A DNA stretch of 64,000 nt. Origin: Gillisia hiemivivida (GTDB taxonomy: Bacteria; Bacteroidota; Bacteroidia; Flavobacteriales; Flavobacteriaceae). The DNA lies in assembly GCF_007997295.1 (NCBI RefSeq), contig NZ_VORY01000008.1, positions 76,596-140,595 of the forward strand, in the 5' to 3' direction. Both the position numbers and the translations under genes were made by a program. Under the pieces are notes generated by a model. The model worked only from the letters and a program-made list of their open reading frames with translations, ran no database searches and was not told the origin of the DNA. Positions 7,459 to 40,286 of the stretch are shown here, piece after piece (positions within the stretch are counted from its first letter, which is position 1; every line of letters begins with the position of its first letter).

Positions 7459-7459
7459 G

Positions 7460-17741: not shown

Positions 17742-17765
17742 TTCAGCTTTTCAGATCAAAATTGT

Positions 17766-23854: not shown

Positions 23855-24443
23855 GGTTTCTTTTTTTTAAAGATTAGGATAATTGGTTGTACTGTTTATA
23901 AGGCCTGCCGACCAATTGCGGTAAATATTGTAGTTGGAATGGTTTTATAATCTTCAGAACACCTATATAAAATACTGATATTCAATTACTTATGAGAAAA
24001 TGAGAATAACTTAACATCGCGTAGCGTGTTATCCTCTTGCTACTCATTTTCCTTCGCTTTCAGCTCATCAAAAGAGTACTTTTTTAGTGATTACTATCCT
24101 TAATTTTCTCTGTTTAATGCAGCACTCAAAGAATATTATTTGACTGCCTTTGTATCAATTTGAAAATTAAGTTAGTAGTGCAATTTTCGATTTTTTGATT
24201 AGATTTTGAAGTTAACTGTCTTATAATTATCTACTAAATTACTTTCAGAAAAACGACAGCGAACTCCAACCATAATTTTCTATAAATAATTTTAAAGTTC
24301 GATTTTCGTTCTTATTTCAATCTGCTTTTCTGTTCAAAATATTGGTTGGTGTTCAAGATTTTTACAGACGAACCTCTTTTTTCTAAGATGTTCTTTTTAA
24401 ACATCGGGAAAAATGTGGTGAGGACTTATTTTATAAATCATCC

Positions 24444-25109: not shown

Positions 25110-25908
25110 AGCTTTTAATTTTATCCTGAACTCTTATGTCCATTTCTTTAATTTCCACATACTTTTTTCCCTGTGCGATAAGCTGACTTATTTTTTCCCG
25201 AAGTTTATTAGTGTCCAAAATGATCCCTTTCCAGAATTCATCTTTATGAAGCAGCTCATAAGCGAGCTGTAAATGTGTTTCCGTAATCCCATCATTTATT
25301 AGCATTTTCCGAACAGGCTCTACGAAATCTTCAAAACTGGCCTCTTTCATTTTTTTCAATGGCGCACCTTTATTTTTTAAATTCTGCAGAAATAACTCCT
25401 GAAATTTAATCGCCCAATTGAATGACAGTTTTTGATCAAAACCAACTTCAAAATCTTTGATTTCCATTAATGGCTTCTTTTCTAAAGTTTCAAGGTTTAT
25501 AGTTTTATTGTTTGCTTGTTTATCTATACTAGCAATGCCTTGGCAAGTGCCATGGACTTGCTTTATATAATGGCTGGACATTGCTTTATCTAATGCTTTT
25601 AGAACTGGCTTGTCATTTTTTACCAAAGCAATGATATTGGCGGTGTACTGATTTTTGCTTTTCTGAATCCATTTTATGAAACCCCAATCTGCTAGATCTT
25701 GTAGTGCACAGATATAGGTTTTATAATTTTTGATGCCCAGGGCTTCCATTGCTAGATCAGTGGGAAAACCAAATTCCTCTTTCCATCCCAACCGATTGCA
25801 GCGTTCGATGGCAAAAAAGTAAATAGCGGTATGGTTGGGTTTTATCTTATGAGTGTTTGCGAAACTAAAATCGAACCATGTGCGGGAAAATTCGTAGCCA
25901 GTCATCAC
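25102..25908 (-). CDS. Putative replication initiation/primase-associated protein of phage/ICE type
   Basis: It sits between an excisionase-like HTH gene and a DnaC-like ATPase in an overlapping operon. There is no catalytic motif, so the call is contextual. Confidence 0.3.
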   Translation of the reverse strand: MMTGYEFSRTWFDFSFANTHKIKPNHTAIYFFAIERCNRLGWKEEFGFPTDLAMEALGIKNYKTYICALQDLADWGFIKWIQKSKNQYTANIIALVKNDKPVLKALDKAMSSHYIKQVHGTCQGIASIDKQANNKTINLETLEKKPLMEIKDFEVGFDQKLSFNWAIKFQELFLQNLKNKGAPLKKMKEASFEDFVEPVRKMLINDGITETHLQLAYELLHKDEFWKGIILDTNKLREKISQLIAQGKKYVEIKEMDIRVQDKIKSYD

Positions 25909-25909
25909 T

Positions 25910-26140
25910 CTAAGAATTAGATTTATTTAGTAGCCAGGAATTCAGTTTTTCCTTTTCGAAATAGATCAACTTTCCTCGGGGTTTGCAATAGGGAATTTTT
26001 TCAGTAGAGGTAAGCTTATACATATAACTTCTTGAAATACCAGTATACTGGCAAGCTTCTTCCAAGGTTAGAACTTCTTTGTTTGCCAGAAGCAGTTGCT
26101 CAATACGAATCAATCGATCCTCTAGTTGTAAATCATCCAT
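25910..26140 (-). CDS. AlpA/Xis-family (MerR-like) helix-turn-helix DNA-binding protein, excisionase-like
   Basis: TLEEACQYTGISRSYMYKLTSTEKIPYCKPRGKLIYFEKEKLNSWL is a typical excisionase/AlpA HTH. The protein is 76 aa. Confidence 0.65.
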   Translation of the reverse strand: MDDLQLEDRLIRIEQLLLANKEVLTLEEACQYTGISRSYMYKLTSTEKIPYCKPRGKLIYFEKEKLNSWLLNKSNS

Positions 26141-26254
26141 AATTTCTATTTTTTATAAAGCCAACAAGTCTTGTTGTCTTTTGATTATAGAAACAAATGA
26201 ATAACGAAAATCCCTGAAAATCAATAGGGTAAGTCGTGGTCTAGTGGTAATACC

Positions 26255-26980
26255 TTATAAATTCTTTTTGAGAAGCGCGGAAATATTCTCTAGATAGGAG
26301 GATTTGTTGTTTTTCCAATCGTAAATATTTTTTGTTGAAAAAGTCAATTCTTTTCCTTCAGAATTTTTCAGAATGAAGTAATAATTTGTTAATTCTATCA
26401 TTTGTTGATTTTCCAAATTTTCAAATCCTACCAAAATTTGACTTAGAAATTCCAACAAGGTTTGGCGGTTTACTTGTTTAGGTAATTTATAAGAAGAATC
26501 TTTCCATACCAATCGTTTCAATCTTGAAACTGGTTTTAACTGAATAAAAGCTTGAAAGGTTTGATAGTCTCCACTTAAATGATTTTCTGAAAATGCTTTA
26601 AAAATATTATTTACTTGAACCTCATTTAAAGGAATGGCATTTAGGTCAAATTTCTTTATTTCATCTTCAGCTAAGCTAAATACCTCCAATGTATTAGAAT
26701 TCCTTCTAACCCTCTTTTGTGTAATATGAAAGTACATTACAGAAGCACATATTAGTAAGCACAATATGAATATAAAAGTGAATACAATTTGTGCCCAAAA
26801 AGCATAGGGAGTAATCCATACATAATACAAAAGCAATGTTAGAAGGAAAACGCAACCCAAAAAAAGAAGAGGACCAATTTGAGAATTTGTTTCTCGAATG
26901 AGATAATTGAGAAAAGTATCTAGCTTTTCCTTCGCTTGAAGTGAAAAAATTGCAATCCGCTCTAAAAACATCCTTATCAA
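26255..26980 (-). CDS. Hypothetical membrane protein (two N-terminal TM helices)
   Basis: Hydrophobic stretches are LLFLGCVFLLTLLLYYVWITPYAFWAQIVFTFIFILCLLICASVMYF. Confidence 0.45.
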   Translation of the reverse strand: MIRMFLERIAIFSLQAKEKLDTFLNYLIRETNSQIGPLLFLGCVFLLTLLLYYVWITPYAFWAQIVFTFIFILCLLICASVMYFHITQKRVRRNSNTLEVFSLAEDEIKKFDLNAIPLNEVQVNNIFKAFSENHLSGDYQTFQAFIQLKPVSRLKRLVWKDSSYKLPKQVNRQTLLEFLSQILVGFENLENQQMIELTNYYFILKNSEGKELTFSTKNIYDWKNNKSSYLENISALLKKNL

Positions 26981-27060
26981 TCTTACTATTAGCTAATTAA
27001 AGATAATAAAAAGAAGAAATAATTAAGCTTTTAAATACTTGGTTACATGAATTTCAAAAA

Positions 27061-27150
27061 GTAAGAAGTACTTCGCCCTCACCTATCTTGGTAAGAATAT
27101 CTTTGTCACAAAGATCTTGCAAATCTTTGGTCACAGTTGTTAGGAGTTTT
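27061..27150. repeat. Diverged direct copy (A) of the 3' end of the fic gene (last ~30 codons), non-coding remnant
   Basis: The reverse-complement translation ...DLQDLCDKDILTKIGEGRSTSY resembles the Fic C-terminus ...DLQDLCDKGILTKEGGGRSTSYY. It shares a ~50-bp left flank, from ~27031, with copy B. Confidence 0.7.
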
Positions 27151-27229
27151 TGGTCAGGAATTGTTTTTTAGTGTGTTCATTCCTTTAAAAAGAGTTCTAA
27201 AAACTCTACTTTAATAATTACCACTGAGC

Positions 27230-28039
27230 TTACAACCACTCCAATTGAAAACTTACGTTATAGCCATATTCTTCATTCCTTAGATTGATTTCGGTGGGTT
27301 TTGTATCCCTGTAATCGTTAAGCCGAATGATTAATTCTTGCGAACTCCTTGCAAGGTCTTGTCCAACACCATTTCCGTCATCATCCCCAATTCCAAACTC
27401 AATTGTAGAACGGTCCGAAATATAAAGTTCCTTTTGGGACAAATCCCACTCTAGTTGTTGCTGATTTGGATATATTGGGGAAAGGTACCATAACCTCATA
27501 TCAACAGTGGCTTTCGAAAAATGTATATTTTTTAATTTGTTAAGTGAAAAAATTATATCGGCCATTCGGTTTGGGTCGTCTTCAGCATATTCTTCGTCCC
27601 AGTTGCCATTCATGTTATAAAACGAATTGATCCGGAAGCCAATAACCTTCACCGCATTTCCGCGAGTAACATTAAAATTCAGGGTTTTTGTTGTTCTTTT
27701 TCCGCTGATACTGGTAAACTCCAACTTCACTTCTTCGTTACCTAAATATCCAAATTGGAAGTGCAGATTAAGATTTTGCTCATCTAGCGAAGTACCGGGC
27801 ATTGCTGCCGTAATACTCTGAGAGCCATTTTCAAAAATTCTGGTGATATCATAAATATCTTCGTTAGATTGTACCTTAACTTCAAAAGGTATATCCACTG
27901 TTACTTCAGTTACAGAAGGTGTAAGGTTTACGTTGAAAATTTTTTCAATTTCAGGAAGCTGTTCATTTGCGGAATCAGGACTACACGAAAAACCAAGTGT
28001 TAGCACCCATATCAGTAAGATTTTTTTTCCCATATTCAT
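27230..28039 (-). CDS. Lipoprotein (signal peptide + lipobox Cys), unknown function
   Basis: The N-terminus is MNMGKKILLIWVLTLGFSCSPDS. It lies between repeat copies A and B. Confidence 0.5.
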   Translation of the reverse strand: MNMGKKILLIWVLTLGFSCSPDSANEQLPEIEKIFNVNLTPSVTEVTVDIPFEVKVQSNEDIYDITRIFENGSQSITAAMPGTSLDEQNLNLHFQFGYLGNEEVKLEFTSISGKRTTKTLNFNVTRGNAVKVIGFRINSFYNMNGNWDEEYAEDDPNRMADIIFSLNKLKNIHFSKATVDMRLWYLSPIYPNQQQLEWDLSQKELYISDRSTIEFGIGDDDGNGVGQDLARSSQELIIRLNDYRDTKPTEINLRNEEYGYNVSFQLEWL

Positions 28040-28335
28040 TTTTAAGAAAAACTGAATAAATGTATAATAAAAAAGGATTCGAAAAGTATTATAATTTGAG
28101 ATTTAAAGAAATTATTTTTTTGGACTGAGGAACCTTTACAGTGCTTCTTTTGTAATTACCATTCAATCTTTGGATTTCTGAGTGATATTACTTCACTAAA
28201 GCTTAGTTTTTTCGATTAAATTTTATGAGCCGAATAGAAAATTCTTCTTCCTCAGATTTATAAAGATATCAAGCTGATTAAAAAATTTATTAGAAGCATA
28301 TGTTTTTAAATACTTGTTTGCATGAATTTCAAAAA

Positions 28336-28427
28336 GTAAGAAGTACTTCGCCCTCCACCTTCCTTGGTGAGAATACCTTTGTCACAAAGATCTTGTAAGT
28401 CCCTTGTGGCTGTTGGTTTGGAGGTTT
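28336..28427. repeat. Near-identical direct copy (B) of the fic 3' end (91/92 identical to 38994-39085)
   Basis: It matches the real fic 3' end exactly except one base (gtaagtccc vs gtaaatccc). It has an A-like left flank. It forms a hybrid att-like junction. Confidence 0.8.
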
Positions 28428-28796
28428 GGTGTATTTGAGTGAGGCCTTAAGTATTTTGATATTTTCGCATTTCAAATTTTCACATAATAACTATGGGAGA
28501 TCAGAAAAAGCACAAGGGAAATAAAACACCCCAAACTACAAATCATAATATTTTCCAGAGTTCGAATATTCATCAGCATAGAGATGCCCATAATATAAGT
28601 TATCAAAAAAATCGTGAAACTTATGATCTTAAAGGTCTTCCTTACTTGCATAGCTGAAAGTTTAGGAAATAAATTTAAAAATAAACAGCCTTATTCATTG
28701 AAAATTAAAGTCATATAATCTTCATGTTATTGTTAAGGGAGAGAGGCTATTTGATTAAGGGTTATGTAAATAAGGGCGATAGATGAAATTTAATGC

Positions 28797-29552
28797 TCAC
28801 ATCTTTGACCTCAATCTTGCAAATTCCTGCTCCAACAGGCTAAGTTTTTCCTCCAGGCCATCCCCGGTTTCAGGAATTCGGTGATAAAAAACATAGCAAA
28901 TACGCCAAAGTTCCTTCACCTCTTTCAGGTTTACTTTGATATCTTCTACTACCTTATGATCTGCCCTCAAAACTACGGTATCATTGGTGATGTAGAGCCT
29001 GCGCAGAACCAGCTGATCCTGATAAATGACCACCACCAGGATCCCGTTGTCTAATTTCTTAAACCCCGATTTAGGAATAATCTCTCCAATAACAACATCT
29101 TTAGGAAATAAGCCTTTATCATGATTACTCATTTCTAAGTTGTCTACTGTATAACCCCTGTAATTTGTTTCTTTGCTTATAGGAAGACGTAAGCACGGCA
29201 TGTTCTTGATGAAGTCCTCCTTGTCAAAATAACGTTTATAGTCGTTGCTGTTACTATGTACAATGCACGGCACCACAGCAAATTGTTCACGCACCATTTC
29301 TTCGTGATCTGTGATCATGCTACTTTTAAACTTCAGTAGCTTGTTTACGGTAAGCTCTTTGGTAAGTAGATCATCTATGGGAATGCTAAAATGGTTAGCA
29401 ATTTTAATTATGGTTTCGATCTTGGGTTCACTTCTTCCTTCTTCGTAAGCCCCAAGTGTACCTCGCTTTAAGTCGAAAAGTTCGGCAAAAGATTGTTGGC
29501 TTAAGGATCTTACGCTTCGGATCTTCCGAATATTTTTACCAAAAAATGACAT
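28797..29552 (-). CDS. XRE-family HTH regulator with LexA/CI-like (S24-like, probably degenerate) C-terminal domain
   Basis: The N-terminus carries IRKIRSVRSLSQQSFAELFDLKRGTLGAYEEGRSEPKIETIIKIANHFSIPIDDLL (HTH_3). The C-terminal beta-rich domain lacks a clear GDSM motif. Confidence 0.6.
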   Translation of the reverse strand: MSFFGKNIRKIRSVRSLSQQSFAELFDLKRGTLGAYEEGRSEPKIETIIKIANHFSIPIDDLLTKELTVNKLLKFKSSMITDHEEMVREQFAVVPCIVHSNSNDYKRYFDKEDFIKNMPCLRLPISKETNYRGYTVDNLEMSNHDKGLFPKDVVIGEIIPKSGFKKLDNGILVVVIYQDQLVLRRLYITNDTVVLRADHKVVEDIKVNLKEVKELWRICYVFYHRIPETGDGLEEKLSLLEQEFARLRSKM

Positions 29553-29872
29553 AATTTGCTAATTTAATTTGCAGCATTTAAAAAATATTGTATATTCGTC
29601 TAACAATATTAGCAAAAAGTTTTCACTTTACCACAATCATTAGCAATTCATTTCCTCCCTACAAGAAATAATTGCTAAAAAGTAAGGAGGAAAAAACAGT
29701 GTCTTCGAGACCTCGATCTTTAATTTTTTAATAAAAACACTAACTTTAAAAGCCAAAAATTATGATTCCATTAATAATTATGTTTTTAACCCACGTAATA
29801 ACCAAAGCTTTAGAACTTTTTTGTATTATTAACCTTTAGAAATTTTTAACATTTTCTAACTAAACAAACTCA

Positions 29873-30268
29873 ATGAAAAATCATTACAATATTACCAGGG
29901 ATTTTTTACTGGAACTAAATTTTGATATCTCCCGAGAAGCAACAGAAGATTGTATCCTTGTGGTTCAAAAAGAAAGTGCGGGAATAAGAAATCTCATCCT
30001 TGGAGTGGCGCCTCCCATCCTTATCCTGGAACAGTTTATTTTCAGGATCAATGACCAGTCTGAAAAGATCTTTAAAAGCCTGCTGCAAAAGAACCGCGAT
30101 ATTATTCACGGAGCCTTTGTCCTGGACGAGAGCGGTGAGAAGGTGATCTTTAGAGATACCCTTCAAATCGAAAACATGGATATCAATGAATTGGAAGGCA
30201 GCCTAAACTCGCTAAGCCTTTTAATGAGTGAATATTCCGATAACATTATTGAATTTTCTAAATACTAA
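29873..30268 (+). CDS. YbjN-like (putative sensory transduction regulator / T3SS-chaperone-like fold) small protein
   Basis: This is a 131-aa acidic protein. Its size and pattern (hydrophobic core segments, C-terminal LSLLMSEYSD) are compatible with the YbjN family. The assignment is weak. Confidence 0.35.
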   Translation: MKNHYNITRDFLLELNFDISREATEDCILVVQKESAGIRNLILGVAPPILILEQFIFRINDQSEKIFKSLLQKNRDIIHGAFVLDESGEKVIFRDTLQIENMDINELEGSLNSLSLLMSEYSDNIIEFSKY

Positions 30269-30280
30269 AAATCTAAAATT

Positions 30281-30997
30281 ATGAACTTATTTAAGCGATT
30301 ATTTAAAATTGGACAGGCTGAAACCAATTCGGCTATAGACCAAATGGAAGATCCCATCAAAATGACCGAGCAAGGCATAAGAGATATGAAAGAAGATCTT
30401 GACAAAAGCCTTGAAGCCCTAGCACAGGTGAAAGCTTTGGCTATTCGTGCGAAGAACGATCAGGATGAACATCAGAACAAAGCCGATGATTACCAGAACA
30501 AGGCCATTGCTATCCTAAAAAAAGGACACAAAAAGGAGATGGATTCCGCAGAGGCAGACCGCCTTGCCAAAGAATCGCTAATTCAAAAAGACCTTAGCGA
30601 CCAACAGGTAATTCGCTCAAAAGAAGAGTCTGCTAAGTTCGACAACAATGTAGCCCAGTTGCAAAAAAACATCCAGTCTATCAAAGGGAATATTGGGAAT
30701 TGGGAGAACGAATTGAAAACCCTGAGAGCGCGCGTGAAAGTGAGCAATGCTACAAAAAGCCTCAATAAGCAAATGGCACAGCTGGACAACTCGGGAACTG
30801 TGAGCATGCTGGAACGAATGAAGGAAAAAGTAGCCCAGGAAGAAGCCCTTGCTGAAGCTTATGGAGATATTGCAAACGCAACAAAATCCATAGATGACGA
30901 GATCGATAAAGCAGCAGATACCTCTAAGGGTAAGGCCGAAGAAGATCTTGCGCAATTGAAGGCAAAACTGGGGCTTAACGATTCTAAAGACCAATAG
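30281..30997 (+). CDS. pspA: PspA/IM30 (phage shock protein A / Vipp1, ESCRT-III-like) family protein
   Basis: The N-terminus MNLFKRLFKIGQAETNSAIDQMEDPIKMTEQGIRDMKEDL matches the PspA_IM30 start. The coiled coil spans the whole protein. Confidence 0.85.
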   Translation: MNLFKRLFKIGQAETNSAIDQMEDPIKMTEQGIRDMKEDLDKSLEALAQVKALAIRAKNDQDEHQNKADDYQNKAIAILKKGHKKEMDSAEADRLAKESLIQKDLSDQQVIRSKEESAKFDNNVAQLQKNIQSIKGNIGNWENELKTLRARVKVSNATKSLNKQMAQLDNSGTVSMLERMKEKVAQEEALAEAYGDIANATKSIDDEIDKAADTSKGKAEEDLAQLKAKLGLNDSKDQ

Positions 30998-30999
30998 CT

Positions 31000-31716
31000 T
31001 TGACCGATCTTTTAAATATATTATTCTCTGAAGTTAACCTGGTACTTTCCATCCTGCTCATCGTGCTAATTGTTTACTGGATAGCCACAATGATAGGCGG
31101 TATTGACTTTGACCTAGATTTTGATATAGATGTTGATGCCAATATTGAGCCTGCGTTGGACCTGGATGCAGGTATAGAAGGTGGCAATATGGATTTTGAG
31201 GATATTTCAAACGCCGAGGTCAATCAGGAAGATGTCGTTGGAAAGCGCCGAAATCCGCTAAAATGGTGGCAAATATTTTTGATCTACTTCAATTTTGTAG
31301 GCCTTCCATTCATGTTCACATTTACCTGTTGGATCTTTTTCTGGTGGTTCATGACGGTGCTTACCACAGCACTTACCTATACATATGACAATTTTATTGG
31401 GTTTGCCATTATGCTGCTGGCTCTTTTTCCGGCGTTGATCGTGACTAAAATTTTCACCACCCCGTTCAAAGGTTTTTTCAAAAATCTCAATAAAAACGGA
31501 GATTCACCTATAGATTATTTGGGAAGAAAAGCCATGTTGCTCTCTTCAATTTCAGAAGATAAGATGGGCAATGCAGAGGTGAAGGTAGACGGTAATTCCA
31601 TGTCTATATATGTAAAATCACTTAATGGAGAAGCTTTACCATACGGAAGTAATATCCTAATCATCAAAAGGTCGCCAGACCACAATTATTATTTAGTTCA
31701 AACGTACAACGATTAA
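31000..31716 (+). CDS. NfeD/YqiJ-like membrane protein (TM segments + acidic region + C-terminal OB-like domain), flotillin partner
   Basis: It uses a TTG start 2 bp after pspA. The TM helices are VLSILLIVLIVYWIATMIGGI and a WWFMTVLTTALTY...LLALFPALIVTKIF region. The C-terminus MGNAEVKVDGNSMSIYVKS resembles the NfeD beta-barrel. It directly precedes the flotillin gene. Confidence 0.5.
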   Translation: MTDLLNILFSEVNLVLSILLIVLIVYWIATMIGGIDFDLDFDIDVDANIEPALDLDAGIEGGNMDFEDISNAEVNQEDVVGKRRNPLKWWQIFLIYFNFVGLPFMFTFTCWIFFWWFMTVLTTALTYTYDNFIGFAIMLLALFPALIVTKIFTTPFKGFFKNLNKNGDSPIDYLGRKAMLLSSISEDKMGNAEVKVDGNSMSIYVKSLNGEALPYGSNILIIKRSPDHNYYLVQTYND

Positions 31717-31730
31717 AAAAACTTAAATTC

Positions 31731-33812
31731 ATGAATTCAATTTTACCAATTATTGGCATTGGGATAGGCATAGTTCTCTTCCTCATCATCGTCTACTTCG
31801 CAATCATTGCGATGTTCTACAAAAAAGTTCCCCAGGGTCAGGCCCTAATCCGTACCGGTTTTGGCGGATCCCAGGTTGCTACAGATAAAGGTCTATACGT
31901 AGTACCAGTATTCCATAAGGTTGAAATTATGGATGTTTCAGTAAAAAAGATCCAGATAGAGCGCCTTGCTCATGAAGGACTCATTTGCAAGGACAACATG
32001 CGTGCAGATATTAAAGTAGCCTTTTTCGTTAGGGTGAACAACGATATTGACTACATCAAAAAAGTGGCTCAAACCATTGGGGTAGCCCGTGCATCTAAAA
32101 TAGAAACTTTAGAAGATCTTTTCGAAGCAAAATTTTCTGAAGCACTTAAAACCGTTGGAAAGAAATTTGAGTTTATAGAGCTTTATGAAGCCCGCCGGGA
32201 ATTTCGAGATGAGATCGTGAATATTATAGGTACAGATCTTAATGGATATACACTGGAAGACTGTGCTATCGACTTTTTGGAGCAAACCCCAGTTACGGCT
32301 TTAAAAGCAGATAATATTCTAGATGCTGAAGGGATCAAGAAGATTACTGAACTCACTGCTATTCAAAATATTAAAGCCAACCTTATAAAGCGAGATGAAG
32401 AAAAGACCATCCGCAAACAGGATGTAGAAGCCCGGGAAGCGATCCTGGAACTCGATAAGCAGTTAGCTGAAAAAGAGGAACAACAAAAACGAGAGATCGC
32501 AAACATCAAGTCCAGGGAGGAAGCTGAAATCTTGAAGGTTTCTGAAGAGGAGCGTCTGAAATCTGAATCAGCACGAATTATCACTCAGGAAAAAGTGAAA
32601 GTTGCTGAAGAAAATATGGAGCGCCAGATCATTGTAGCACTTAAGAACAAGCAAAGGACCGAAGCTGTGGAAACAGAACGCGTTGAAAAAGACCGCATGC
32701 TTGAAGCTACCGAAAGAGAACGCGTGGTGACATTGGCCCAAATCGAGAAAGTGAAAGTTGTTGAAGTTGAAAAGAAGAATATTCAGGATGTGATTCGCGA
32801 CCGGGTAACCCTTGAAAAAGGAGTGGTTGAGGAGCAGGAAAATATGAAAGATATTGAAGCCTTCAAAACTGCCGATCGTGAAAAGCAGGTGAAGATAACT
32901 ATTGCTGAAGCTAATGCTCAGGAAAGCCTTATCAAAGTAACCAAAGCCGCTGAAGCTTCTAAAGAAGCCGCTAAACAAAGAGCAGAAGAGATTAATATTG
33001 AAGCTCTGGCAGAAAAAGAAGCCAGTATTAAACAAGCAGATGCCCGTAAGATCCTTGCAGAGGCACAAGCCAAAGAAGAAGCTACCATTGGGATGTCTGA
33101 AGCTCAGGTAATGCACGCAAAAGCTGATGCCCACGAGCGCCAGGGAATTGTGGAAGCAAATATAATAGAACTTAAAGCCAAAGCCTTGGCATCAGGAATT
33201 GAAGCCAATGCCGATGCAAAACGTAAAGATGGCCTTGCTGAAGCTGCCGTGATCAAGGAAAAAGCCCTTGCCGATGCTGCAGGAATTGAGGAGAAAGCCA
33301 ATGCAATGAAGAAACTTGACGGGGTAGGAAAAGAACACGAAGAGTTCAAACTACGTCTTGACAAAGACCTTCAGGTAGATCTTGCACACATCAACATCCA
33401 GAAAGATATCGCCGATGCCCAGGCCGCAGTGCTTGGAGATGCTTTACGAGCTGCTAAAATTGATATTGTAGGTGGTGAAACTATGTTCTTTGACAAGATC
33501 ATAAGCCAGATCACCAGAGCCAAAGGATATGACAGGTTGGTGGAGAACAGTACCAATCTACAGGAAGTGAAAACCGCCATTTTAGGCAGTGACAACCTAA
33601 AAGGAGATTTGCTGGACAAGATCAAGATGTTCACAGATAAGTACGGCATTTCTTCGGAAGATGTAAAGAATCTGAGTATTGCGACATTGCTGAACAACCT
33701 TAGACAGAAGTCTGATGACCAGGAAGAGCAAACGATCTTCGGAAATTTGTTAACCTTGGCCGATGGTCTTGGGATCTCAAATAAACCGCTCCCAAAACTC
33801 AACCATAAGTAG
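31731..33812 (+). CDS. Flotillin / SPFH (band 7) family protein, YqiK-like, with long C-terminal coiled coil
   Basis: An N-terminal TM (IIGIGIGIVLFLIIVYFAIIAMF) is followed by an SPFH domain (GQALIRTGFGGSQVATDKGLYVVPVFHKVEIMDVSVKKIQIER). The Ala/Glu/Lys-rich flotillin repeats follow. The protein is 693 aa. Confidence 0.85.
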   Translation: MNSILPIIGIGIGIVLFLIIVYFAIIAMFYKKVPQGQALIRTGFGGSQVATDKGLYVVPVFHKVEIMDVSVKKIQIERLAHEGLICKDNMRADIKVAFFVRVNNDIDYIKKVAQTIGVARASKIETLEDLFEAKFSEALKTVGKKFEFIELYEARREFRDEIVNIIGTDLNGYTLEDCAIDFLEQTPVTALKADNILDAEGIKKITELTAIQNIKANLIKRDEEKTIRKQDVEAREAILELDKQLAEKEEQQKREIANIKSREEAEILKVSEEERLKSESARIITQEKVKVAEENMERQIIVALKNKQRTEAVETERVEKDRMLEATERERVVTLAQIEKVKVVEVEKKNIQDVIRDRVTLEKGVVEEQENMKDIEAFKTADREKQVKITIAEANAQESLIKVTKAAEASKEAAKQRAEEINIEALAEKEASIKQADARKILAEAQAKEEATIGMSEAQVMHAKADAHERQGIVEANIIELKAKALASGIEANADAKRKDGLAEAAVIKEKALADAAGIEEKANAMKKLDGVGKEHEEFKLRLDKDLQVDLAHINIQKDIADAQAAVLGDALRAAKIDIVGGETMFFDKIISQITRAKGYDRLVENSTNLQEVKTAILGSDNLKGDLLDKIKMFTDKYGISSEDVKNLSIATLLNNLRQKSDDQEEQTIFGNLLTLADGLGISNKPLPKLNHK

Positions 33813-33820
33813 ATAACTTG

Positions 33821-33850
33821 CGCCCCGGGCAACCGGGGTGCTTTAATTTT
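33821..33850 (+). terminator. Rho-independent terminator after flotillin gene (CCCCGG-GCAA-CCGGGG stem-loop + T-run)
   Basis: A GC-rich 6-bp stem with a GCAA tetraloop is followed by TGCTTTAATTTT. It lies 9 bp after the stop codon. Confidence 0.7.
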
Positions 33851-33977
33851 CCACACGAAAAGCGAAATTTTCCCACAAGTCATTTCTGGATCTGGAAGGC
33901 CACGAAGGTTTTCATGCGCTAACAAGATCTAGATTGTGTAGGATCATTCATGCGTTTCAAAATTATTACATAGAGAA

Positions 33978-36900
33978 ATGGCAGAAGAGCAGGCAACAAT
34001 TAAGGACACTCAAACCCTCGACGGCGGCACCTATGAGATCATCCAGGGCCGTTTACAGAAACAAAAGACCGAGCTGCAGGAGCGTTTACAAAAACTTAAT
34101 GTAGAACGCAAAGAGGTTTTTGGTTCTCTGGAGACCAAATTGATCTCTACAGACCGTATAAATACAGAGAATAATTGCATTGCCCGGGACATCATCTCCC
34201 TGGGAAATACCTGTGTGTTTGGTTACAACGTGCATTTCGGTTTGCGAACCGAGATTAGTCTTTCAGATGTTTTTAGTATCTATGAATTCAGGGACAATCG
34301 CTTTGAGCCTAAGCCGCTAGATATTTTGCAGGATGAGGTTTTTGTGGCCGACTTTGCCAACCTTTACAAGTATTACCGCAACACCATTTTCTCTAAGTTT
34401 GCTGTTATTGGGAATTACCTTCATATGGTTTTTCAGCTTAGTGACAGTGCAACAGATATTAAGACTTTCAAATGGCTCATAAGGGACAACACTCTTCAAT
34501 ATATTGATAATCGTAGTGAAACAGAGTACAAATTCAAGCCTCAGCACGAATTCAAATGGCTTGAGGTAACCCGGGATATGCATCGCTACGGCGTGCATTC
34601 TCATGTTTCTATTCTGGATAAGGTTTTTGTAGAAACCATTGGAGGTGATCTTACCATTAAGATCGAGAACAACACCCAGGACGGAAAAGGAATCCTCGAT
34701 GAGCCGGTGGAGCATCAGGACCAGACTTTGGACGACGGGCAATACAAATTCGCCAATTTAGGCAACCTTATCGCTTTGGAAATAAAGCCATTTCAGGAAG
34801 CGCCGCGGTACTTTGTATACAACCATAAGCTTAAGGAAGTCAAGAAAATTGAAAGCATCAAAGATTCCTGTATCCTGTTGCCAGACGATCAGGGAATTAT
34901 TTTTCCTACCGGATATTACTTGCAAACCGGGGAGTACAAGATTCTCAACAATGAGATCCAGAATGTAAAGTTTGAGCAGAAGATCGCTTCTCCCAATGGC
35001 GAAGATTATCTTTATGTTTTCTATTCCCCCGGGGAAGGCCTTTACAACCTGATGTCTTACAATATCATCACCCAGGAGATTCAAACCCCTATTATTTGCA
35101 ACGGATTTACAATTCTTAAAAACGGAGAGCTCTGTTATTTTAGAACTGAGAATGAGCAAACTAGGCACCACGTAATCCAGATCTGGCAAACCCCGTATTT
35201 ATCAGGAGATTTTATGCCTTCACAGCACGAGGATACTTTGCTTTACAAAATTGGAAATAAAGATATAGTCAAAGCGATGGCCGAGGTGAACGGACTTGTA
35301 AATTTACTAAACAAAGAAGACAACTACGGCGGATTGTATCTGGATATCTCCAAATTTTCAAGGGACATTCTCGATTCCTATTACTGGTTGCCGGAGCCGG
35401 AAGCGCAGCAACTCAACGAGCCTATTGGAGAGATCAATAAAGCTGCAAATGCTGCGATAGATGAATTTGAGAAAGTTGTTCAGCTTAAGAAAAACGCGCA
35501 GGGACAAACCAAAGAGATCAGGGAGAAAGCACAGGCTATTTTTAGCAAAGTGAAAAGCTCTTCCTTCAAATCTATCAATGATTTTGTGTTGTTCTTAACC
35601 GAGTTGAGGAAGCTTCGCGGGGAGGCTATTAGCCTTAAGGATATTCGCTACGTAGATGCAGATTTTATTAAGCAGCTGGAAGAGGAGATCGCCCAACAAA
35701 CTCAAAAAATTTCTGAAAAGTGCGTACATTTCTTATTGGATCAAAAAGCATTGTTACCTTATCAAAAGACCGTTGATGAAAAGCGGGCAGCTTTAGAAAA
35801 AGTCAACAAGGTCATAGAAGTAAAAAAACTGGAGGAGGAGGTAAACCAAATAGCGGCAGATCTTGAGATGTTGATAGAGATCGTTTCCAATCTCGATATT
35901 GAAGACACCGCGCATTCTACAAAAATCATCGACAATATTTCTTTGATCTTCGCGACAATCAACCAATTGAAAGCCGCACTGAAAAATAAGAAAAAAGCTT
36001 TGGGAAGTGAAGAGGCACGTGCCGATTTTGCAGCTCAATTAAAGCTTATAGACCAGAGCATCATTAATTACCTCGATATTTCATCAACACCTGAAAAGTG
36101 TGACGAATTCCAGACAAAGATCTCGATACAGCTGGAGGAACTTGAAGGAAAATTCACAGATTTTGAAGAATTCATATCTCTAATAATTCAAAAGCGGGAG
36201 GAGGTTCACGCAGCCTTTGAAGCGAGAAAAAATTCTCTTGTTGAAAAGCGGAACAAAAAAGCCCTCGCCCTTCAAAATGCTGCAGATCGGATTTTGAAAG
36301 GAGCCATTTCTAAAGCTGAAAGGTTTTCAACAGCCTCAGAGATTCACGGGTATTTTGCTGCAGATCTTATGATCAATAAGGTTCGCGACATCATCAAACA
36401 ATTGGTGGAACTGGAAGATAGCGGGAAAGCTGAAGAGATAGAGACCAGCCTGAAAACCGCCAGGGAAAACGCGCTGCGAAAACTAAAGGATAAACTCGAT
36501 CTTTACGAAGATGGCGACAATGTGATCAAGCTGGGTAAACATAAGTTTGGAGTGAACAAGCAGCCCCTGGACCTCACCATCGTTTTAAAGGATGGCACCC
36601 CGCATTACCATTTAACTGGAACTGATTTTTACCAGGAATTAAAAAACCAGGTTCTGCTGAATTCAACCGCACTGTGGGAGCAGGAATTTGTTTCTGAAAA
36701 TCCGAAGGTGTATCGTTCGGCTTATCTCGCTTACAAATTATTCCGAAAGATTCCTCAAGCAACCTTGCTGGAGTCATCAGAAGAAGGGCTGCTGAAAATC
36801 GTGCAGCAGGAAAGCAATAGCGATTATACTGAAGGTTATATTAAAGGTGTTCACGATGTAGATGCCGCCAAGATCCTCCGGGTGCTGGTTCATAAAGATT

Positions 36901-38870
36901 ATGAACTAGGACTACTCACTTATTCGCCAAAAATAAGAGGACATGCACAGTATTTCTGGAACAGCTTAACCGCTGAAGTTCGCAAGAATTTAGACCAGAC
37001 TATGAAGGCTTCAGGAGAAGTATTGAGCATTTTTCCCAATACGCGGGAATACGATTTTCTGATCTCAAAGCTGAGCGGGCACATCTGTAACTATTCAGAA
37101 GGATCAGGTTTGTTTTCTTCAGAATTTAGTGAAAAAATAGCCGCTTATATTTTTGAAGAGCTACAAAGTGATAACGATTTTGTACGCAGTAGCGTTGCTT
37201 TGTTTTTGAAAGAAGATTTTTTAAAGGCATTGAAAGAACAACAGGCCGACCTTAAATTCAGGAAAAGTTATGAAGCGGAAACAACTTATGAAGGAAAGAT
37301 CCGTTTGATCAAACAGTGGGTTTCGGCCTTTGTAAATAGTACGGAGCAACCTGAAACATTGGGAAAACCTTTGCTTCTCAATTATGTTGATGAGGTGGTA
37401 TGCCTTATTATGTTTGAAGATGGATCTGTTTCTAAAACCAAAGCCGTATCTCCCGGGGAAACCATACAGGGATTAAGCGGGGATCATCCAAGTTTTCAGG
37501 ATGGGGTTTTTAATTTCAATTACCACAGTTTTGAAGCTCAACTGGAGGAGTTTGTAAATAATAACATTCCTGCTTATAACACTTTTAGAAAGGCAAAAAA
37601 CGAAGTGACCAAACAGCTCAAGGAAGACCTGAAACTCGAAGAGTTACAGCCAAAAGTGTTGACTTCCTTTGTACGAAACAAGTTGATAGACCAGGTGTAT
37701 TTTCCATTGTTTGGAGATAATCTTGCAAAACAATTGGGAACAGTGGGGGATAAGACCCGAACAGACAGAAGCGGAATGCTGCTGTTGATCTCACCCCCTG
37801 GCTATGGAAAAACTACGCTTATGGAATACATTGCAGATCGTCTTGGCTTGGTATTCATAAGGATCAACGGCCCTGCAATTGGTCACGAGATCACCTCAGT
37901 AGATCCGCTTTCAGCAACAAATTCTGCAGCCAGGGAAGAGCTGAAAAAGTTGAACCTCGCCTTTGAAATGGGGAATAATGTGATGCTTTATCTTGACGAT
38001 ATCCAACATTGCAACCCAGAGTTCTTACAGAAATTCATTTCTCTATCTGATGGTACCCGAAAAATAGAAGGGATCTTCAACGGGAAATCAAAAACCTATG
38101 ATCTGCGCGGAAAGAAATTTTGCGTGATCATGGCCGGAAACCCATATACTGAAACCGGTGACAAATTCAGGATTCCCGATATGCTTGCCAACCGGGCAGA
38201 TATTTACAACCTGGGAGATATCATTGGAGATACCGGGCACTTGTTCAAGCTAAGTTTGATCGAGAATTCGCTTACTGCGAATCCGTTATTGCAGCAGTTG
38301 AGCAGCACCCATTTTGACGATATATACACGCTTATTGACAGGATCGAAAATAATACTCAGGACACCCAACTTACCGGAAGTCATACCGCCCAGGAGGTGC
38401 AGGAATACACCTCGGTGCTTAAGAAAGTGATTGCCATAAGAGATACTGTTCTTAAAGTAAACGCTGCATATATAAATAGCGCCGCTATGGAAGATGAATA
38501 CAGAACACAGCCCACGTTTAAACTTCAGGGTTCCTATAGAGATATGAACAAGCTGGTGAGCAAAGTAGTACCTATTATGAACGACAAGGAGCTGGAGAGG
38601 CTTCTGCTTTCTCACTATGAGAGCGAATCGCAAACCCTCACTTCTTCTGCAGAAGCCAACCTTTTAAGATACAAGGAGCTTATAAACCGCCTTGATGAGA
38701 CAGAGCAGGAGCGGTGGAAAACCATTAAGGAAACCTTTGTGAAAAATAATAAGCTGAAAGGTTTTGGAAATAAGAATGAAATGGCGCAGGTGCTCTCGCA
38801 GATGATGCAGTTTTCAGATAATCTTGAAGGAATCAAAAAAGTATTGGAAAGAGGTTTGGAGAGGAATTAA
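33978..38870 (+). CDS. Giant (1630 aa) multidomain protein: N-terminal beta-rich region, ~700-aa coiled-coil, C-terminal MoxR/dynein-type AAA+ (AAA_5-like) ATPase module
   Basis: Walker A is LLLISPPGYGKTTLMEYIADRLG and Walker B is VMLYLDDIQHC. A sensor-like GNPYTE...NRADIYNLGD follows. The central part carries heptad-rich E/K/L segments. The gene is visibly more GC-rich than its neighbours. Confidence 0.7.
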   Translation: MAEEQATIKDTQTLDGGTYEIIQGRLQKQKTELQERLQKLNVERKEVFGSLETKLISTDRINTENNCIARDIISLGNTCVFGYNVHFGLRTEISLSDVFSIYEFRDNRFEPKPLDILQDEVFVADFANLYKYYRNTIFSKFAVIGNYLHMVFQLSDSATDIKTFKWLIRDNTLQYIDNRSETEYKFKPQHEFKWLEVTRDMHRYGVHSHVSILDKVFVETIGGDLTIKIENNTQDGKGILDEPVEHQDQTLDDGQYKFANLGNLIALEIKPFQEAPRYFVYNHKLKEVKKIESIKDSCILLPDDQGIIFPTGYYLQTGEYKILNNEIQNVKFEQKIASPNGEDYLYVFYSPGEGLYNLMSYNIITQEIQTPIICNGFTILKNGELCYFRTENEQTRHHVIQIWQTPYLSGDFMPSQHEDTLLYKIGNKDIVKAMAEVNGLVNLLNKEDNYGGLYLDISKFSRDILDSYYWLPEPEAQQLNEPIGEINKAANAAIDEFEKVVQLKKNAQGQTKEIREKAQAIFSKVKSSSFKSINDFVLFLTELRKLRGEAISLKDIRYVDADFIKQLEEEIAQQTQKISEKCVHFLLDQKALLPYQKTVDEKRAALEKVNKVIEVKKLEEEVNQIAADLEMLIEIVSNLDIEDTAHSTKIIDNISLIFATINQLKAALKNKKKALGSEEARADFAAQLKLIDQSIINYLDISSTPEKCDEFQTKISIQLEELEGKFTDFEEFISLIIQKREEVHAAFEARKNSLVEKRNKKALALQNAADRILKGAISKAERFSTASEIHGYFAADLMINKVRDIIKQLVELEDSGKAEEIETSLKTARENALRKLKDKLDLYEDGDNVIKLGKHKFGVNKQPLDLTIVLKDGTPHYHLTGTDFYQELKNQVLLNSTALWEQEFVSENPKVYRSAYLAYKLFRKIPQATLLESSEEGLLKIVQQESNSDYTEGYIKGVHDVDAAKILRVLVHKDYELGLLTYSPKIRGHAQYFWNSLTAEVRKNLDQTMKASGEVLSIFPNTREYDFLISKLSGHICNYSEGSGLFSSEFSEKIAAYIFEELQSDNDFVRSSVALFLKEDFLKALKEQQADLKFRKSYEAETTYEGKIRLIKQWVSAFVNSTEQPETLGKPLLLNYVDEVVCLIMFEDGSVSKTKAVSPGETIQGLSGDHPSFQDGVFNFNYHSFEAQLEEFVNNNIPAYNTFRKAKNEVTKQLKEDLKLEELQPKVLTSFVRNKLIDQVYFPLFGDNLAKQLGTVGDKTRTDRSGMLLLISPPGYGKTTLMEYIADRLGLVFIRINGPAIGHEITSVDPLSATNSAAREELKKLNLAFEMGNNVMLYLDDIQHCNPEFLQKFISLSDGTRKIEGIFNGKSKTYDLRGKKFCVIMAGNPYTETGDKFRIPDMLANRADIYNLGDIIGDTGHLFKLSLIENSLTANPLLQQLSSTHFDDIYTLIDRIENNTQDTQLTGSHTAQEVQEYTSVLKKVIAIRDTVLKVNAAYINSAAMEDEYRTQPTFKLQGSYRDMNKLVSKVVPIMNDKELERLLLSHYESESQTLTSSAEANLLRYKELINRLDETEQERWKTIKETFVKNNKLKGFGNKNEMAQVLSQMMQFSDNLEGIKKVLERGLERN

Positions 38871-38972
38871 CAACAGATCTATGTTCACATTCAACATAAA
38901 ATATTTTCTCTTTAATTTTTATTGTACCATTTAAATCAAATTGATAAAGAATTTCTTAATAGATGATTATCA

Positions 38973-40079
38973 TTATTTGAAACCATTTATATAGTAAGAA
39001 GTACTTCGCCCTCCACCTTCCTTGGTGAGAATACCTTTGTCACAAAGATCTTGTAAATCCCTTGTGGCTGTTGGTTTGGAGGTTTTGTTCAAGGAAACAT
39101 ATTTTCTGGCATTCATTCCACCATCAAAACCTTTGGGGCCAGATTTGAGCATACGTCGAATAGCTTTCTCCTGTCTTTGGTTTAATTGATGTTTATTACG
39201 GTCAAAAAACTTAGTTTTTTTAAGGGTAAACTCAATCAGGGATTCGGCATCTATCTGAGCAGAAATAGTAGTCTTTACAAAGTAATTGATCCACTGAGTA
39301 ATTTCATTTGATCTTTGGGCCAGTTGCAAAGCAGCATAATAGTTTTTCTTTTTTCCTTCCATTGCTTTAGAAAGACTCAATAATACAGGCCGGTCCATAT
39401 ACTGTGAAAGAGCTTTTTCTGAAATGGCTCGTCCAATACGTCCGTTTCCATCTTCAAAGGGATGGATTGTTTCGAAATAAAGGTGTGCAATAGCAGCACG
39501 AAGTATTGGTTTTTTTATTTCCATTTCTCCTCCACGAGCGGTTTGGTTAAACCACTGGATAAAGCGTTTCATTTCTTTGGCAACTATTTTGGAAGGAGGA
39601 GCTTCGTAATGTATTTTTTCTTTTCCCATTGCTCCCGATATCACCTGCATTGGTTCTTCGTGAGTTCGCCATTGTCCAGCCTGAATTTTGGGGTTTCCCT
39701 TCATTAACAACTTATGCCAGCTGAAAAGGTTTTCTTTAGTAAGATCTTCTTTAAAAGTTTTTTGGGCATCGATCATTAATTCTGATATACCTTCGGCAGT
39801 TTTATCTTTTGAAATAATATCGGTTTTTAATCCAAGATTCTTTTTAATAGATGACATTACATCTTTCCTGCTAAGATATTCTCCTTCGATCTCTGAAGTT
39901 TTGAGAGCTTCGGAAACCAGCAATTCTATAATGGCTTCACTCTTTGTTTCTTCCGGTAAACCTTCGAGGATACCATTAATCTTTCCCGTTCTTTGTGAAT
40001 AATCATAAAGCAAATCTTCCACCTCTTCAGTAGAATATTGAAAGTTTGGCCAATCTGCCTGTTGCCAATTATACTTCAT
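38973..40079 (-). CDS. fic: Fic family protein (Fic/DOC AMPylase-type fold with C-terminal wHTH)
   Basis: The canonical Fic motif HPFEDGNGRIGRA is present. The last ~30 codons (38994-39085) are the source of repeat copies A and B. Confidence 0.85.
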   Translation of the reverse strand: MKYNWQQADWPNFQYSTEEVEDLLYDYSQRTGKINGILEGLPEETKSEAIIELLVSEALKTSEIEGEYLSRKDVMSSIKKNLGLKTDIISKDKTAEGISELMIDAQKTFKEDLTKENLFSWHKLLMKGNPKIQAGQWRTHEEPMQVISGAMGKEKIHYEAPPSKIVAKEMKRFIQWFNQTARGGEMEIKKPILRAAIAHLYFETIHPFEDGNGRIGRAISEKALSQYMDRPVLLSLSKAMEGKKKNYYAALQLAQRSNEITQWINYFVKTTISAQIDAESLIEFTLKKTKFFDRNKHQLNQRQEKAIRRMLKSGPKGFDGGMNARKYVSLNKTSKPTATRDLQDLCDKGILTKEGGGRSTSYYINGFK

Positions 40080-40286
40080 GAGCCGATTATATATTTTATT
40101 CGGCTCAAATATACAAAATAAATGATTTGATTAAGGAGCTTATTCGGCTCATAAGTTTCCAGAGCCCAAAAAAGCTTTTCACACTCTATTAGAGTGATAA
40201 AATTTCTTAGAATCATGGCTAACTTATAAACCTTGAGGTGATTTAAATTCTTTTTGCTCCTTTCTAGTGATTAAACCCGAAAAAAA

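What the first reader, a model, noticed from the sequence alone, without database searches (positions are those of the whole stretch)
27031..39085. Three direct copies of the fic 3' end delimit a ~10.6 kb acquired island plus a ~1.2 kb remnant (att-like junctions, no integrase)
The last ~92 bp of the fic gene (38994-39085) recur in direct orientation at 28336-28427, with 91 of 92 bases identical. A more diverged copy (~80% identity) lies at 27061-27150. Copies A and B additionally share a ~50-bp left flank (AAATACTTG.TT.CATGAATTTCAAAAAG), whereas B and C share the right part. Copy B is therefore a hybrid junction. This is the pattern left by serial site-specific integration into the 3' end of a protein-coding gene, where each element restores the gene terminus and displaces the previous one downstream. 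No tyrosine or serine recombinase is encoded between the copies. The elements are therefore either degraded or mobilised in trans.
Basis: seen in the sequence. Interest (0 to 1): 0.65.

Follow-up and report, generated by a model that had tools for sequence, protein, structure and literature searches.

The report
Recombination scars around a fic gene
The three repeats are real and the insert is present in some relatives and absent in others, but they are scars of ordinary recombination around a phage-defence (SoFic-type fic) gene in a decayed mobile element, not attachment sites of integrase-less islands.

Summary
Copy B (28335-28427) matches copy C (38993-39085) at 92 of 93 bases. Copy A (27060-27160) is about 80-84% identical and frameshifted. 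A and B share the native fic C-terminal tail.

The genome is Gillisia hiemivivida. Its closest relatives carry fic followed directly by the gene that lies left of A, so occupancy is polymorphic.

- The 10.5-kb "island" is the lineage's own CesT-PspA-flotillin-AAA+ stress operon, about 95% identical to a relative's copy in its normal chromosomal place. It is cut inside the neighbouring DUF2809 gene and has no attP or recombinase.
- fic is itself element-borne. In Salegentibacter-like contigs the same module reads tmRNA, tyrosine integrase, fic, 241-aa gene, excisionase-like gene, DnaD/DnaC-like genes, relaxase. That integrase sits beside ssrA, not the fic end.
- A relic of the fic operator and start codon follows B, so A belongs to a second tandem fic copy gutted by a lipoprotein gene.
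- Remnant lengths vary from 93 to about 270 bp among relatives.

The best reading is illegitimate insertion plus homologous gain and loss at a cargo hot spot. Interest is modest.

The parts
38973..40079 (-). Live fic gene (368 aa; DUF4172 + Fic + C-terminal wHTH), SoFic type. Its last 7 codons (38973-38992, YINGFK*) come from the insert side.
   Evidence: Pfam. PADLOC SoFic E 1.6e-51. PDB 8cil Fic family protein E 1e-73. 100% identical to G. hiemivivida WP_146932283. The tail is unique among 120 homologues.
40078..40158 (-). fic upstream region with two palindromes (TGAGCCGAATA-N7-TAATCGGCTCA); the second overlaps the ATG. Operator-like. Homology to all relatives ends at about 40151-40158.
   Evidence: (D12). 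The same paired palindromes lie upstream of fic in distant phyla. The homology boundary is seen.
38993..39085 (.). Copy C: 93-bp core inside the live fic gene.
38914..38992 (.). 79 bp of unknown origin between the truncated DUF2809 start and core C. It supplies the new fic tail and stop.
   Evidence: Homology to L049 and L058 ends at about 38913. No match in any fetched locus.
38881..38913 (+). First 11 or so codons of a DUF2809 gene, truncated. This is the right end of the relocated segment.
   Evidence: Alignment with the intact DUF2809 genes of L049 and L058.
28445..38913 (+). Relocated chromosomal segment. It holds a small-ORF region and six genes: XRE/S24-like regulator 28797-29552 (-), CesT_Tir_1 29873-30268, PspA 30281-30997, TM protein 31000-31716, band-7/flotillin 31731-33812, DUF3686/AAA+ 33978-38870.
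   Evidence: Pfam. The same six genes are syntenic in Salinimicrobium and others. 95.5% identical to L049 over 31288-38913 and 94.7% to L056 over 28451-33508. The operon type is described in PMC11237479.
28428..28444 (.). About 17 bp of unknown origin between core B and the start of homology to L056 and L057.
28335..28427 (.). Copy B: 93-bp core, 92/93 identical to C, non-coding (no start codon in frame).
28302..28334 (-). Native fic tail (FLKFMQTSI*) attached to B. With B this forms the original terminus of the gene.
   Evidence: 96% identical over 126 bp to the fic end of L124, whose product ends YFLKFMQPSI.
28216..28301 (-). Decayed head of a second fic copy: a relic of the second operator palindrome and of the start codon (TATTCGGCTCATaAA...).
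   Evidence: Local alignment 43/56 to 40040-40175, reached by 0.3% of shuffles. Motif count. Collinear with the G. limnaea order remnant-tail-ficUp-fic.
27230..28039 (-). 269-aa predicted lipoprotein gene that replaces the body of the second fic copy.
   Evidence: Orthologue 86% (aa) in G. limnaea, lying between a 246-bp fic 5' fragment and a fic 3' remnant.
27029..27160 (-). Copy A plus tail: frameshifted 3' end of the second, older fic copy.
   Evidence: It shares derived changes (DKDIL, KIG) with the remnant or mini-fic lineage of JM1 and L122.
23492..26980 (-). Backbone of the decayed integrative mobilizable element: 241-aa TM protein, HTH_17 excisionase-like, DnaD/O-like (268 aa), DnaC-like (221 aa), 120 aa.
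   Evidence: Pfam, PHROGs. Syntenic in all Gillisia loci and in L062, where an integrase and a relaxase are also present.

Best explanation
The copies are recombination scars at a cargo hot spot next to a SoFic-type fic defence gene. The gene lies in a decayed integrative mobilizable element of Gillisia hiemivivida.

Copy C is the end of the live gene. Copy B with its 33-bp tail is that gene's original terminus. It was split off when a 10.5-kb piece of the lineage's own chromosome was inserted about 20 bp before the fic stop codon. That piece is the XRE/S24 regulator plus the CesT-PspA-TM-flotillin-AAA+ operon, broken inside the adjacent DUF2809 gene. The insertion left 93 bp of fic on both sides. 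Copy A is the 3' end of an older, second tandem fic copy whose body was replaced by a lipoprotein gene.

The insertion was not made by an element-encoded or fic-specific integrase. It was an illegitimate event. Either a break was repaired, or a template switch occurred, with a 93-bp overlap; or the tail-to-body stretch between two tandem fic copies was replaced. Afterwards the direct fic repeats allow RecA-type deletion and allele exchange, and this produces the occupied and empty states seen among relatives.

Shown: the repeats, the native tail, the empty sites, the native location of the operon in a close relative, the truncated DUF2809, the element context, and the second-copy relic.

Inferred: the molecular mechanism of the insertion, and whether the operon was moved or copied.
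For: - Repeats and native tail. Relatives' fic proteins end YFLK..., and P0366 ends YFLKFMQPSI.
- Empty sites: L001/L003, L004, L044, L048, L061, L089, L090, L124.
- Same-sample pair from SRR17689995, presumably one organism. L124 has fic (97.3%) followed directly by the 238-aa gene (95.7%). L049 has the PSP operon (95.5%) continuing into DUF2809-DUF4256-A2M. The operon therefore appears vertically related and normally sits elsewhere.
- Insert ends: 38913 lies inside DUF2809 and about 28445 lies in an intergenic stretch. Both are followed by unmatched filler.
- Nothing mobile inside: no recombinase, no tRNA, no terminal inverted repeats.
- fic is element-borne: tmRNA-integrase-fic-241aa-...-relaxase in L062, and tmRNA-integrase-fic in L024.
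- Second fic copy: operator and start relic after B. The gutted copy is orthologous in G. limnaea but lies on the other side of the full fic.
- Different cargo at the same junction: PAS kinase-like protein plus response regulator between 300-bp repeats of 93% identity in JM1, L125 and L122. The repeat copies there carry different allelic types, which fits homologous exchange.
- Variable remnant lengths.
Against: - All repeats, in all events, include the same last 93 bp or so of fic. This is also what a common crossover site would give.
- The B/C identity has sharp edges on both sides, as at att sites.
- The origin of the 79-bp and 17-bp junction stretches is unknown, so an attP-like donor molecule cannot be ruled out.
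- A 93-bp target duplication is unusual for illegitimate insertion, and I could not show which sub-mechanism produced it.
- The rest of the G. hiemivivida genome was not available, so cut-versus-copy and the presence of a candidate trans-integrase remain untested.
Confidence: 0.55

Rival explanations
1. Integrase-less islands, mobilised by a recombinase encoded elsewhere, integrate serially and site-specifically into the fic 3' end. Each brings a substitute terminus.
For: Direct repeats with sharp edges, a substitute stop codon, polymorphic occupancy and different cargoes at the same junction in different genomes. All repeats share the last 93 bp of fic.
Against: The cargo is the lineage's own operon with a truncated neighbour gene at its end. 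No attP or integrase was found. The integrase of the related complete element sits beside tmRNA. Repeat extents vary from 93 to about 300 bp and in JM1 include 140 bp of the next gene. A relic of a fic head follows B.
Confidence: 0.15
2. Campbell-type single crossover. A circular DNA carrying the operon plus a 93-bp fic patch, for example looped out from a pre-existing fic-flanked arrangement in another strain, integrated by homologous recombination into fic.
For: A single crossover duplicates exactly the shared patch. The two arrangements of the lipoprotein module (downstream of fic here, upstream in G. limnaea) are what one circle would give by crossing over in the 3' or the 5' fic homology. 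The JM1 repeats carry different allelic types.
Against: It needs a prior event that joined the operon to a fic patch, so it only moves the problem back. No such donor arrangement was found in any fetched locus. 93 bp is short for efficient RecA crossover.
Confidence: 0.2
3. The fic 3' fragments are kept because the stand-alone C-terminal wHTH domain acts as a regulator or antidote of SoFic.
For: L122 encodes an in-frame 81-aa mini-fic (N-terminal 22 aa plus C-terminal domain) behind the fic operator. The JM1 remnant is a 50-aa ORF with an ATG. SoFic toxicity depends on its C-terminal domain, and a 47-aa antidote lies downstream of E. coli SoFic (PMC12249575).
Against: In this window B has no start codon and A is frameshifted, so neither can make the domain.
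Confidence: 0.03
4. Assembly artefact: a 93-bp repeat mis-joined the contigs.
For: None specific. An apparent 127-bp duplication in L024 did prove to flank a run of N.
Against: The hybrid fic tail, a junction-specific product, is carried under two separate accessions, CAM4169993.1 and TXD93798.1, with two contigs on record. There are no N runs here, and analogous structures occur in independent genomes.
Confidence: 0.02

Closest known systems
Genomic islands integrated at the 3' end of tRNA or tmRNA genes, with tandem accretion and displaced gene ends
   Same: Direct repeats made of a gene's 3' end, a substitute terminus, variable occupancy and several generations of remnants.
   Different: Here the repeated gene is itself cargo of an element. 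The insert has no integrase or defined ends and is a truncated piece of ordinary chromosome. Repeat lengths vary between events.
Integrative mobilizable elements of Bacteroidota (NBU1-like: integrase, HTH_17 excisionase-like gene, replication/primase genes, relaxase)
   Same: The backbone left of copy A matches this gene set. The complete relative L062 has a tyrosine integrase next to tmRNA and a MobA/VirD2 relaxase.
   Different: The Gillisia copies lack the integrase and the relaxase, and no tmRNA lies in the window. They are fixed remnants shared by several species.
Defence-gene hot spots inside prophages and satellites (variable cargo between conserved flanking genes; from my own knowledge of the P2/P4 literature)
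   Same: Conserved flanks (fic end and the 241-aa gene) with strain-specific cargo. Neighbouring defence genes include SoFic and WYL here, and gasdermin, HepT/MNT and ParE in G. limnaea.
   Different: The largest cargo here is a housekeeping-type envelope stress operon, not a defence system. The flank is partly duplicated at each event.
CesT/Tir-PspA-band-7/flotillin-AAA+ operon (PMC11237479)
   Same: Same domain set and order.
   Different: Nothing differs in content. Only its location is unusual, inside a fic gene and cut off from DUF2809.

Membership tests
att-flanked integrative island (tyrosine/serine recombinase) | Insert bounded by direct repeats derived from the target | tested here: met
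   B/C 92/93.
att-flanked integrative island (tyrosine/serine recombinase) | Recombinase gene in or next to the insert | tested here: not met
   Pfam on all ORFs from 14.4 to 42.4 kb finds none. tblastn with a Bacteroidota integrase finds none in the window.
att-flanked integrative island (tyrosine/serine recombinase) | Same element ends (attP-derived) wherever the element occurs, with cargo distinct from the host chromosome | tested here: not met
   Closest copies (L049, L056, L058) continue into chromosomal neighbours beyond both ends. The right end cuts DUF2809.
att-flanked integrative island (tyrosine/serine recombinase) | Polymorphic occupancy with precise empty sites | tested here: met
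   L124, L044, L090, L089, L004 and L003 have fic with one end.
att-flanked integrative island (tyrosine/serine recombinase) | Excised circular form / recombinase dependence | not testable with these tools
   Needs reads or experiments.
tmRNA-adjacent integrative mobilizable element (context of fic) | Tyrosine integrase adjacent to tmRNA, followed by fic-241aa-HTH_17-DnaD/DnaC-like genes and a relaxase | tested here: inconclusive
   Met in L062, and partly in L024. In the window only the backbone genes remain: no integrase, relaxase or tmRNA.
SoFic defence protein | Full-length match to the SoFic profile and the Fic motif HPFxxGNGR | tested here: met
   PADLOC SoFic E 1.6e-51 over residues 12-363. 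HPFEDGNGRIGR is present in the translation.
SoFic defence protein | Protection against phage | not testable with these tools
   Experimental.
Integron cassette array | attC sites (R''/R' motifs, folded bottom strand) between cassettes; IntI nearby | tested here: not met
   No GTTRRRY/RYYYAAC pairs in the repeats examined in relatives. No Rfam hit in 17-42 kb. No integrase.
Transposon with target-site duplication | Transposase, terminal inverted repeats, short fixed-length duplication | tested here: not met
   No transposase domain, no terminal inverted repeats at 28428/38992, and a 93-bp duplication.

The most novel reading that the evidence does not exclude
The flanks of SoFic cassettes are sites of an unrecognised insertion process that adds DNA together with a 60-300-bp duplication of the target. 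It would act at the fic 3' end (three different cargoes in Gillisia), at the oriT-like inverted-repeat piece of the same element (duplicated around gasdermin in G. limnaea and around another cargo in CAL575), and around whole fic cassettes in distant phyla. It would perhaps be driven by the element's replication or relaxase functions rather than by an integrase.
Probability: 0.1. Interest if true: 0.7.

Novelty: new member of a known kind. Interest (0 to 1): 0.3.

Why it matters
It shows, with an occupied site and a matching empty site plus donor locus in a relative about 95-97% identical, that a complete envelope-stress operon can be relocated into the end of a defence gene inside a dead mobile element. 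It is also a caution: direct repeats of a gene's 3' end with variable occupancy look like att sites but can arise without site-specific integration. The finding places SoFic-type fic as the integrase-adjacent cargo of a tmRNA-adjacent element family in Flavobacteriaceae. Beyond that the case is ordinary genome plasticity.

Tried and rejected
- A fourth fic copy or any recombinase in the window: none.
- tRNA or tmRNA in the window: none. The tmRNA 3' end of L024 has no match in the window.
- Rfam families in 17-42 kb: none.
- Origin of the junction fillers (28428-28444 and 38914-38992): no match in any locus. The apparent similarity of the 79-bp filler to the fic tail or to DUF2809 is too weak in AT-rich sequence to use.
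- The 471-aa OEP after the operon in L049 as orthologue of the window's TolC, which would have made the operon and the TolC array native neighbours: rejected, only 55% aa identity.
- Direct repeats at the ends of the 22.8-kb TolC/ABC block: none.
- attC-like nature of the repeats that flank fic in other phyla: rejected. They are heterogeneous: tRNA 3' ends, an integrase 3' end, and intergenic sequence.
- The fic palindromes as recombination junctions: rejected, because repeat edges in other phyla lie 0-500 bp away from them.
- Homology between the window's element genes and the integrase-bearing element next to DUF3686 in L051: none.
- The 127-bp tmRNA duplication in L024: a scaffolding artefact around Ns.
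- Exact look-up of the window's own fic protein in the contig index: not on record, so the rest of the G. hiemivivida genome could not be read.


Full report
OBSERVATION

The fic gene is 38973-40079 on the minus strand and has DUF4172, Fic and a C-terminal winged helix. Its last part recurs twice in direct orientation. Copy B (28335-28427) matches copy C (38993-39085) at 92 of 93 bases, with the only mismatch at 28399/39057. Copy A (27060-27160) is 80-84% identical and has a 1-nt deletion that breaks the frame.

Core patterns are found three times against none expected. There is no fourth copy.

On the fic strand, the flank shared by A and B continues the reading frame as ...STSY-FLKFM(QTSI)*. 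This is the tail that fic carries in its relatives. The live gene ends in a unique YYINGFK*. B has no start codon in frame.

ORGANISM AND OCCUPANCY

The fic protein is 100% identical to that of Gillisia hiemivivida and is held under two accessions.

In several relatives fic is followed directly by the orthologues of the genes left of copy A:
- G. limnaea (L001/L003)
- Gillisia sp. CAL575 (L004)
- two MAG contigs (L044, L048)
- three metagenome contigs (L061, L089, L090)
- the closest relative, L124

These are empty sites.

Gillisia sp. JM1 (L002, fic 97% identical), L125 and L122 carry a different cargo at the same junction. It is a PAS sensor-kinase-like protein and a response regulator, lying between 300-bp repeats of 93% identity. 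Those repeats cover the last 160 bp or so of fic, the tail and the start of the next gene.

Occupancy is polymorphic and the repeats are fic-derived.

WHAT THE "ISLAND" IS

Between B and C lie six genes: an XRE/S24-like regulator, CesT_Tir_1, PspA, a TM protein, a band-7/flotillin protein, and a 1630-aa DUF3686/AAA+ protein. This is the CesT/Tir-PspA operon class described in PMC11237479.

It is a conserved, syntenic chromosomal cluster in many Flavobacteriaceae, next to housekeeping genes in Salinimicrobium.

The closest copies are L049 (95.5% over 31288-38913) and L056/L057 (94.7% and 91.9%, both ending at 28451). L049 and L056 are 98.5% identical to each other. In L049 the operon continues into DUF2809, DUF4256 and an A2M-like gene. 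In the window only about 11 codons of DUF2809 remain (38881-38913). On the left, homology to L056 stops at about 28445, in an intergenic stretch.

L049 and L124 come from the same sample (SRR17689995), and I assume they come from the same organism. L124 has fic (97.3%) with the native tail, followed directly by the 238-aa gene (95.7%). On that assumption, in a relative about 95-97% identical the operon sits in its normal place and the fic site is empty.

The operon's divergence equals that of the flanks. I therefore read it as the lineage's own DNA relocated, not a foreign island. Its higher G+C reflects an ordinary operon lying next to AT-rich element DNA.

There is no recombinase, tRNA or terminal inverted repeat. 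The junction stretches 28428-28444 and 38914-38992 match nothing I could fetch.

WHAT fic IS

The protein matches the PADLOC SoFic model (E 1.6e-51) and a solved Fic family protein. SoFic is a toxic AMPylating abortive-infection protein (PMC12249575).

The genes left of copy A are a 241-aa TM protein, an HTH_17 excisionase-like protein, a DnaD/O-like protein and a DnaC-like protein.

In Salegentibacter-like contigs the same module is complete. L062 reads: tmRNA, tyrosine integrase (Arm-DNA-bind_5, SAM_5, Phage_integrase), fic, 241-aa gene, DnaD-like gene, DnaC-like gene, relaxase, DUF6730. L024 reads: tmRNA, integrase, fic.

fic is thus the integrase-adjacent cargo gene of an integrative mobilizable element that lies next to ssrA. 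The Gillisia copies have lost the integrase and the relaxase. The att site of that integrase is presumably at ssrA, not at the fic end.

COPY A AND THE 1.2-kb SEGMENT

After B's tail comes a decayed copy of the second fic operator palindrome and of the start codon. It aligns 43/56 to the real fic upstream region, a score reached by 0.3% of shuffles. Next come the 269-aa lipoprotein gene and then copy A.

G. limnaea has the orthologous module, in this order: a 246-bp fic 5' fragment, the lipoprotein gene (86% aa), a fic 3' remnant with the same 5' edge, and a tail. There it lies upstream of the full fic, followed directly by the fic upstream region.

A therefore belongs to a second tandem fic copy that was gutted. 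It is not a terminus displaced by an integrating element.

A shares derived changes with the remnant lineage of JM1 and with the in-frame mini-fic of L122.

Remnant lengths differ among relatives: 93 bp (B); about 105-130 bp (A, G. limnaea, L122); 151 bp (JM1); about 270 bp (L117).

MECHANISM

Shown: one recent event put about 10.6 kb between position 38993 and the original terminus of fic, and 93 bp are present on both sides.

Inferred: the event was illegitimate. I see two candidate routes.
- Insertion at a break, or a template switch, with a 93-bp overlap.
- Replacement of the stretch between two tandem fic copies, so that the end of one copy and the last 126 bp of the next survive. Tandem copies are documented at this locus.

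A Campbell-type crossover of a circle carrying a fic patch is a close rival. It also explains the two placements of the lipoprotein module. A trans-acting integrase remains possible but has no positive evidence.

Once formed, the direct repeats allow homologous deletion and allele exchange. This fits the empty sites and the mixed allelic types of the JM1 repeats.

VERDICT

The sequence pattern is real and the site is a genuine hot spot. The "integrase-less islands with att-like junctions" reading is replaced by recombination scars in a decayed, defence-carrying mobile element. It is a new example of a known kind of genome plasticity and is of modest interest.

Noticed in passing
window 40160-62985: In JM1, CAL575 and L125 the fic upstream region abuts a 460-bp piece that equals window 62986-63446 (up to 98.9% identical). 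Here a 22.8-kb block (TolC-like OEP, ABC ATPase, about eight FtsX-type permeases and others) lies between them, with no flanking repeats. fic in this genome is therefore flanked by large indels on both sides. L124 and G. limnaea have yet other upstream neighbours, all starting at about 40151-40158.
   Followed up: partly
window 23303-23483 (also L001 16633-16790 and 19562-19712; L004 14723-14850 and 16143-16267; L062 7611-7704): A non-coding piece whose core of about 95 nt is nearly invariant and holds a long inverted repeat (GCGCCCTCTGCTGTTTTTAC...ATAAAAACAGCACAGG). It is conserved more strongly than the flanking genes and lies after the relaxase/DUF6730 genes in L062, so it may be an oriT. 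It has no Rfam match and shows no covariation. It is duplicated around the gasdermin-protease pair in G. limnaea and around a 1.3-kb cargo in CAL575, so it is a second repeat-flanked cargo site in the same element.
   Followed up: partly
window 40078-40151; L011, L012, L021, L029, L036 just upstream of fic: Two palindromes (TGAGCCGAATA-N7-TAATCGGCTCA), 44 bp apart, with the second overlapping the start codon. They are conserved upstream of this fic family from Flavobacteriia to Kiritimatiellota and Gammaproteobacteria, although the proteins are only about 60% identical. They are probably an operator for the protein's own wHTH domain, or a translational hairpin.
   Followed up: partly
L021 9851-9937/11125-11211; L011 9278-9492/11127-11340; L012 9694-9786/11135-11227; L016 9629-9688/11171-11230; L036 8291/9764/11105; L008; L043: In 7 of about 44 distant loci, the fic cassette is itself bracketed by direct repeats of 60-215 bp of local sequence, 80-99% identical. 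The repeats are heterogeneous: a tRNA 3' end (L016), the 3' end of an integrase gene (L008), a gene 3' end (L036), and intergenic DNA (L021, L012). L011 also lies inside a 4.5-kb islet bounded by 46-bp tRNA-Pro 3' repeats and holding an AbiE-like pair.
   Followed up: partly
L122 1102-1347; L002 14146-14298: An in-frame mini-fic of 81 aa (22 N-terminal residues fused to the C-terminal wHTH domain) sits behind the intact fic operator. JM1 has a 50-aa ORF with an ATG that covers the same domain. Given that SoFic has a small downstream antidote and needs its C-terminal domain for toxicity (PMC12249575), these could be functional.
   Followed up: no
L001 (G. limnaea) 1728-8427 and 16801-19291: The same region in G. 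limnaea carries MNT/HepT, a second Fic protein, a UvrA-like ABC protein, ParE, two fic 5' fragments, and a bacterial gasdermin with its protease. The window has WYL and DUF2779 genes at 17.7-22 kb. The whole element is a defence-type variable region.
   Followed up: no
L051-L053 versus L050: In a species whose PSP operon is 81% identical to the window's, an element with a tyrosine integrase, HTH_17 and other genes is inserted immediately downstream of the DUF3686 gene in some contigs and absent in another (prs follows instead). Its genes are unrelated to the window's element.
   Followed up: partly
L058 19312-19581 versus window 28476-28743: The small-ORF stretch that abuts the XRE gene in the window and in L056 lies 8.5 kb further away in L058, beyond AMP-binding, DUF3419, kinase-like, PEP-utilising and UbiA genes. 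The window and L056 lineage has therefore lost that block.
   Followed up: no
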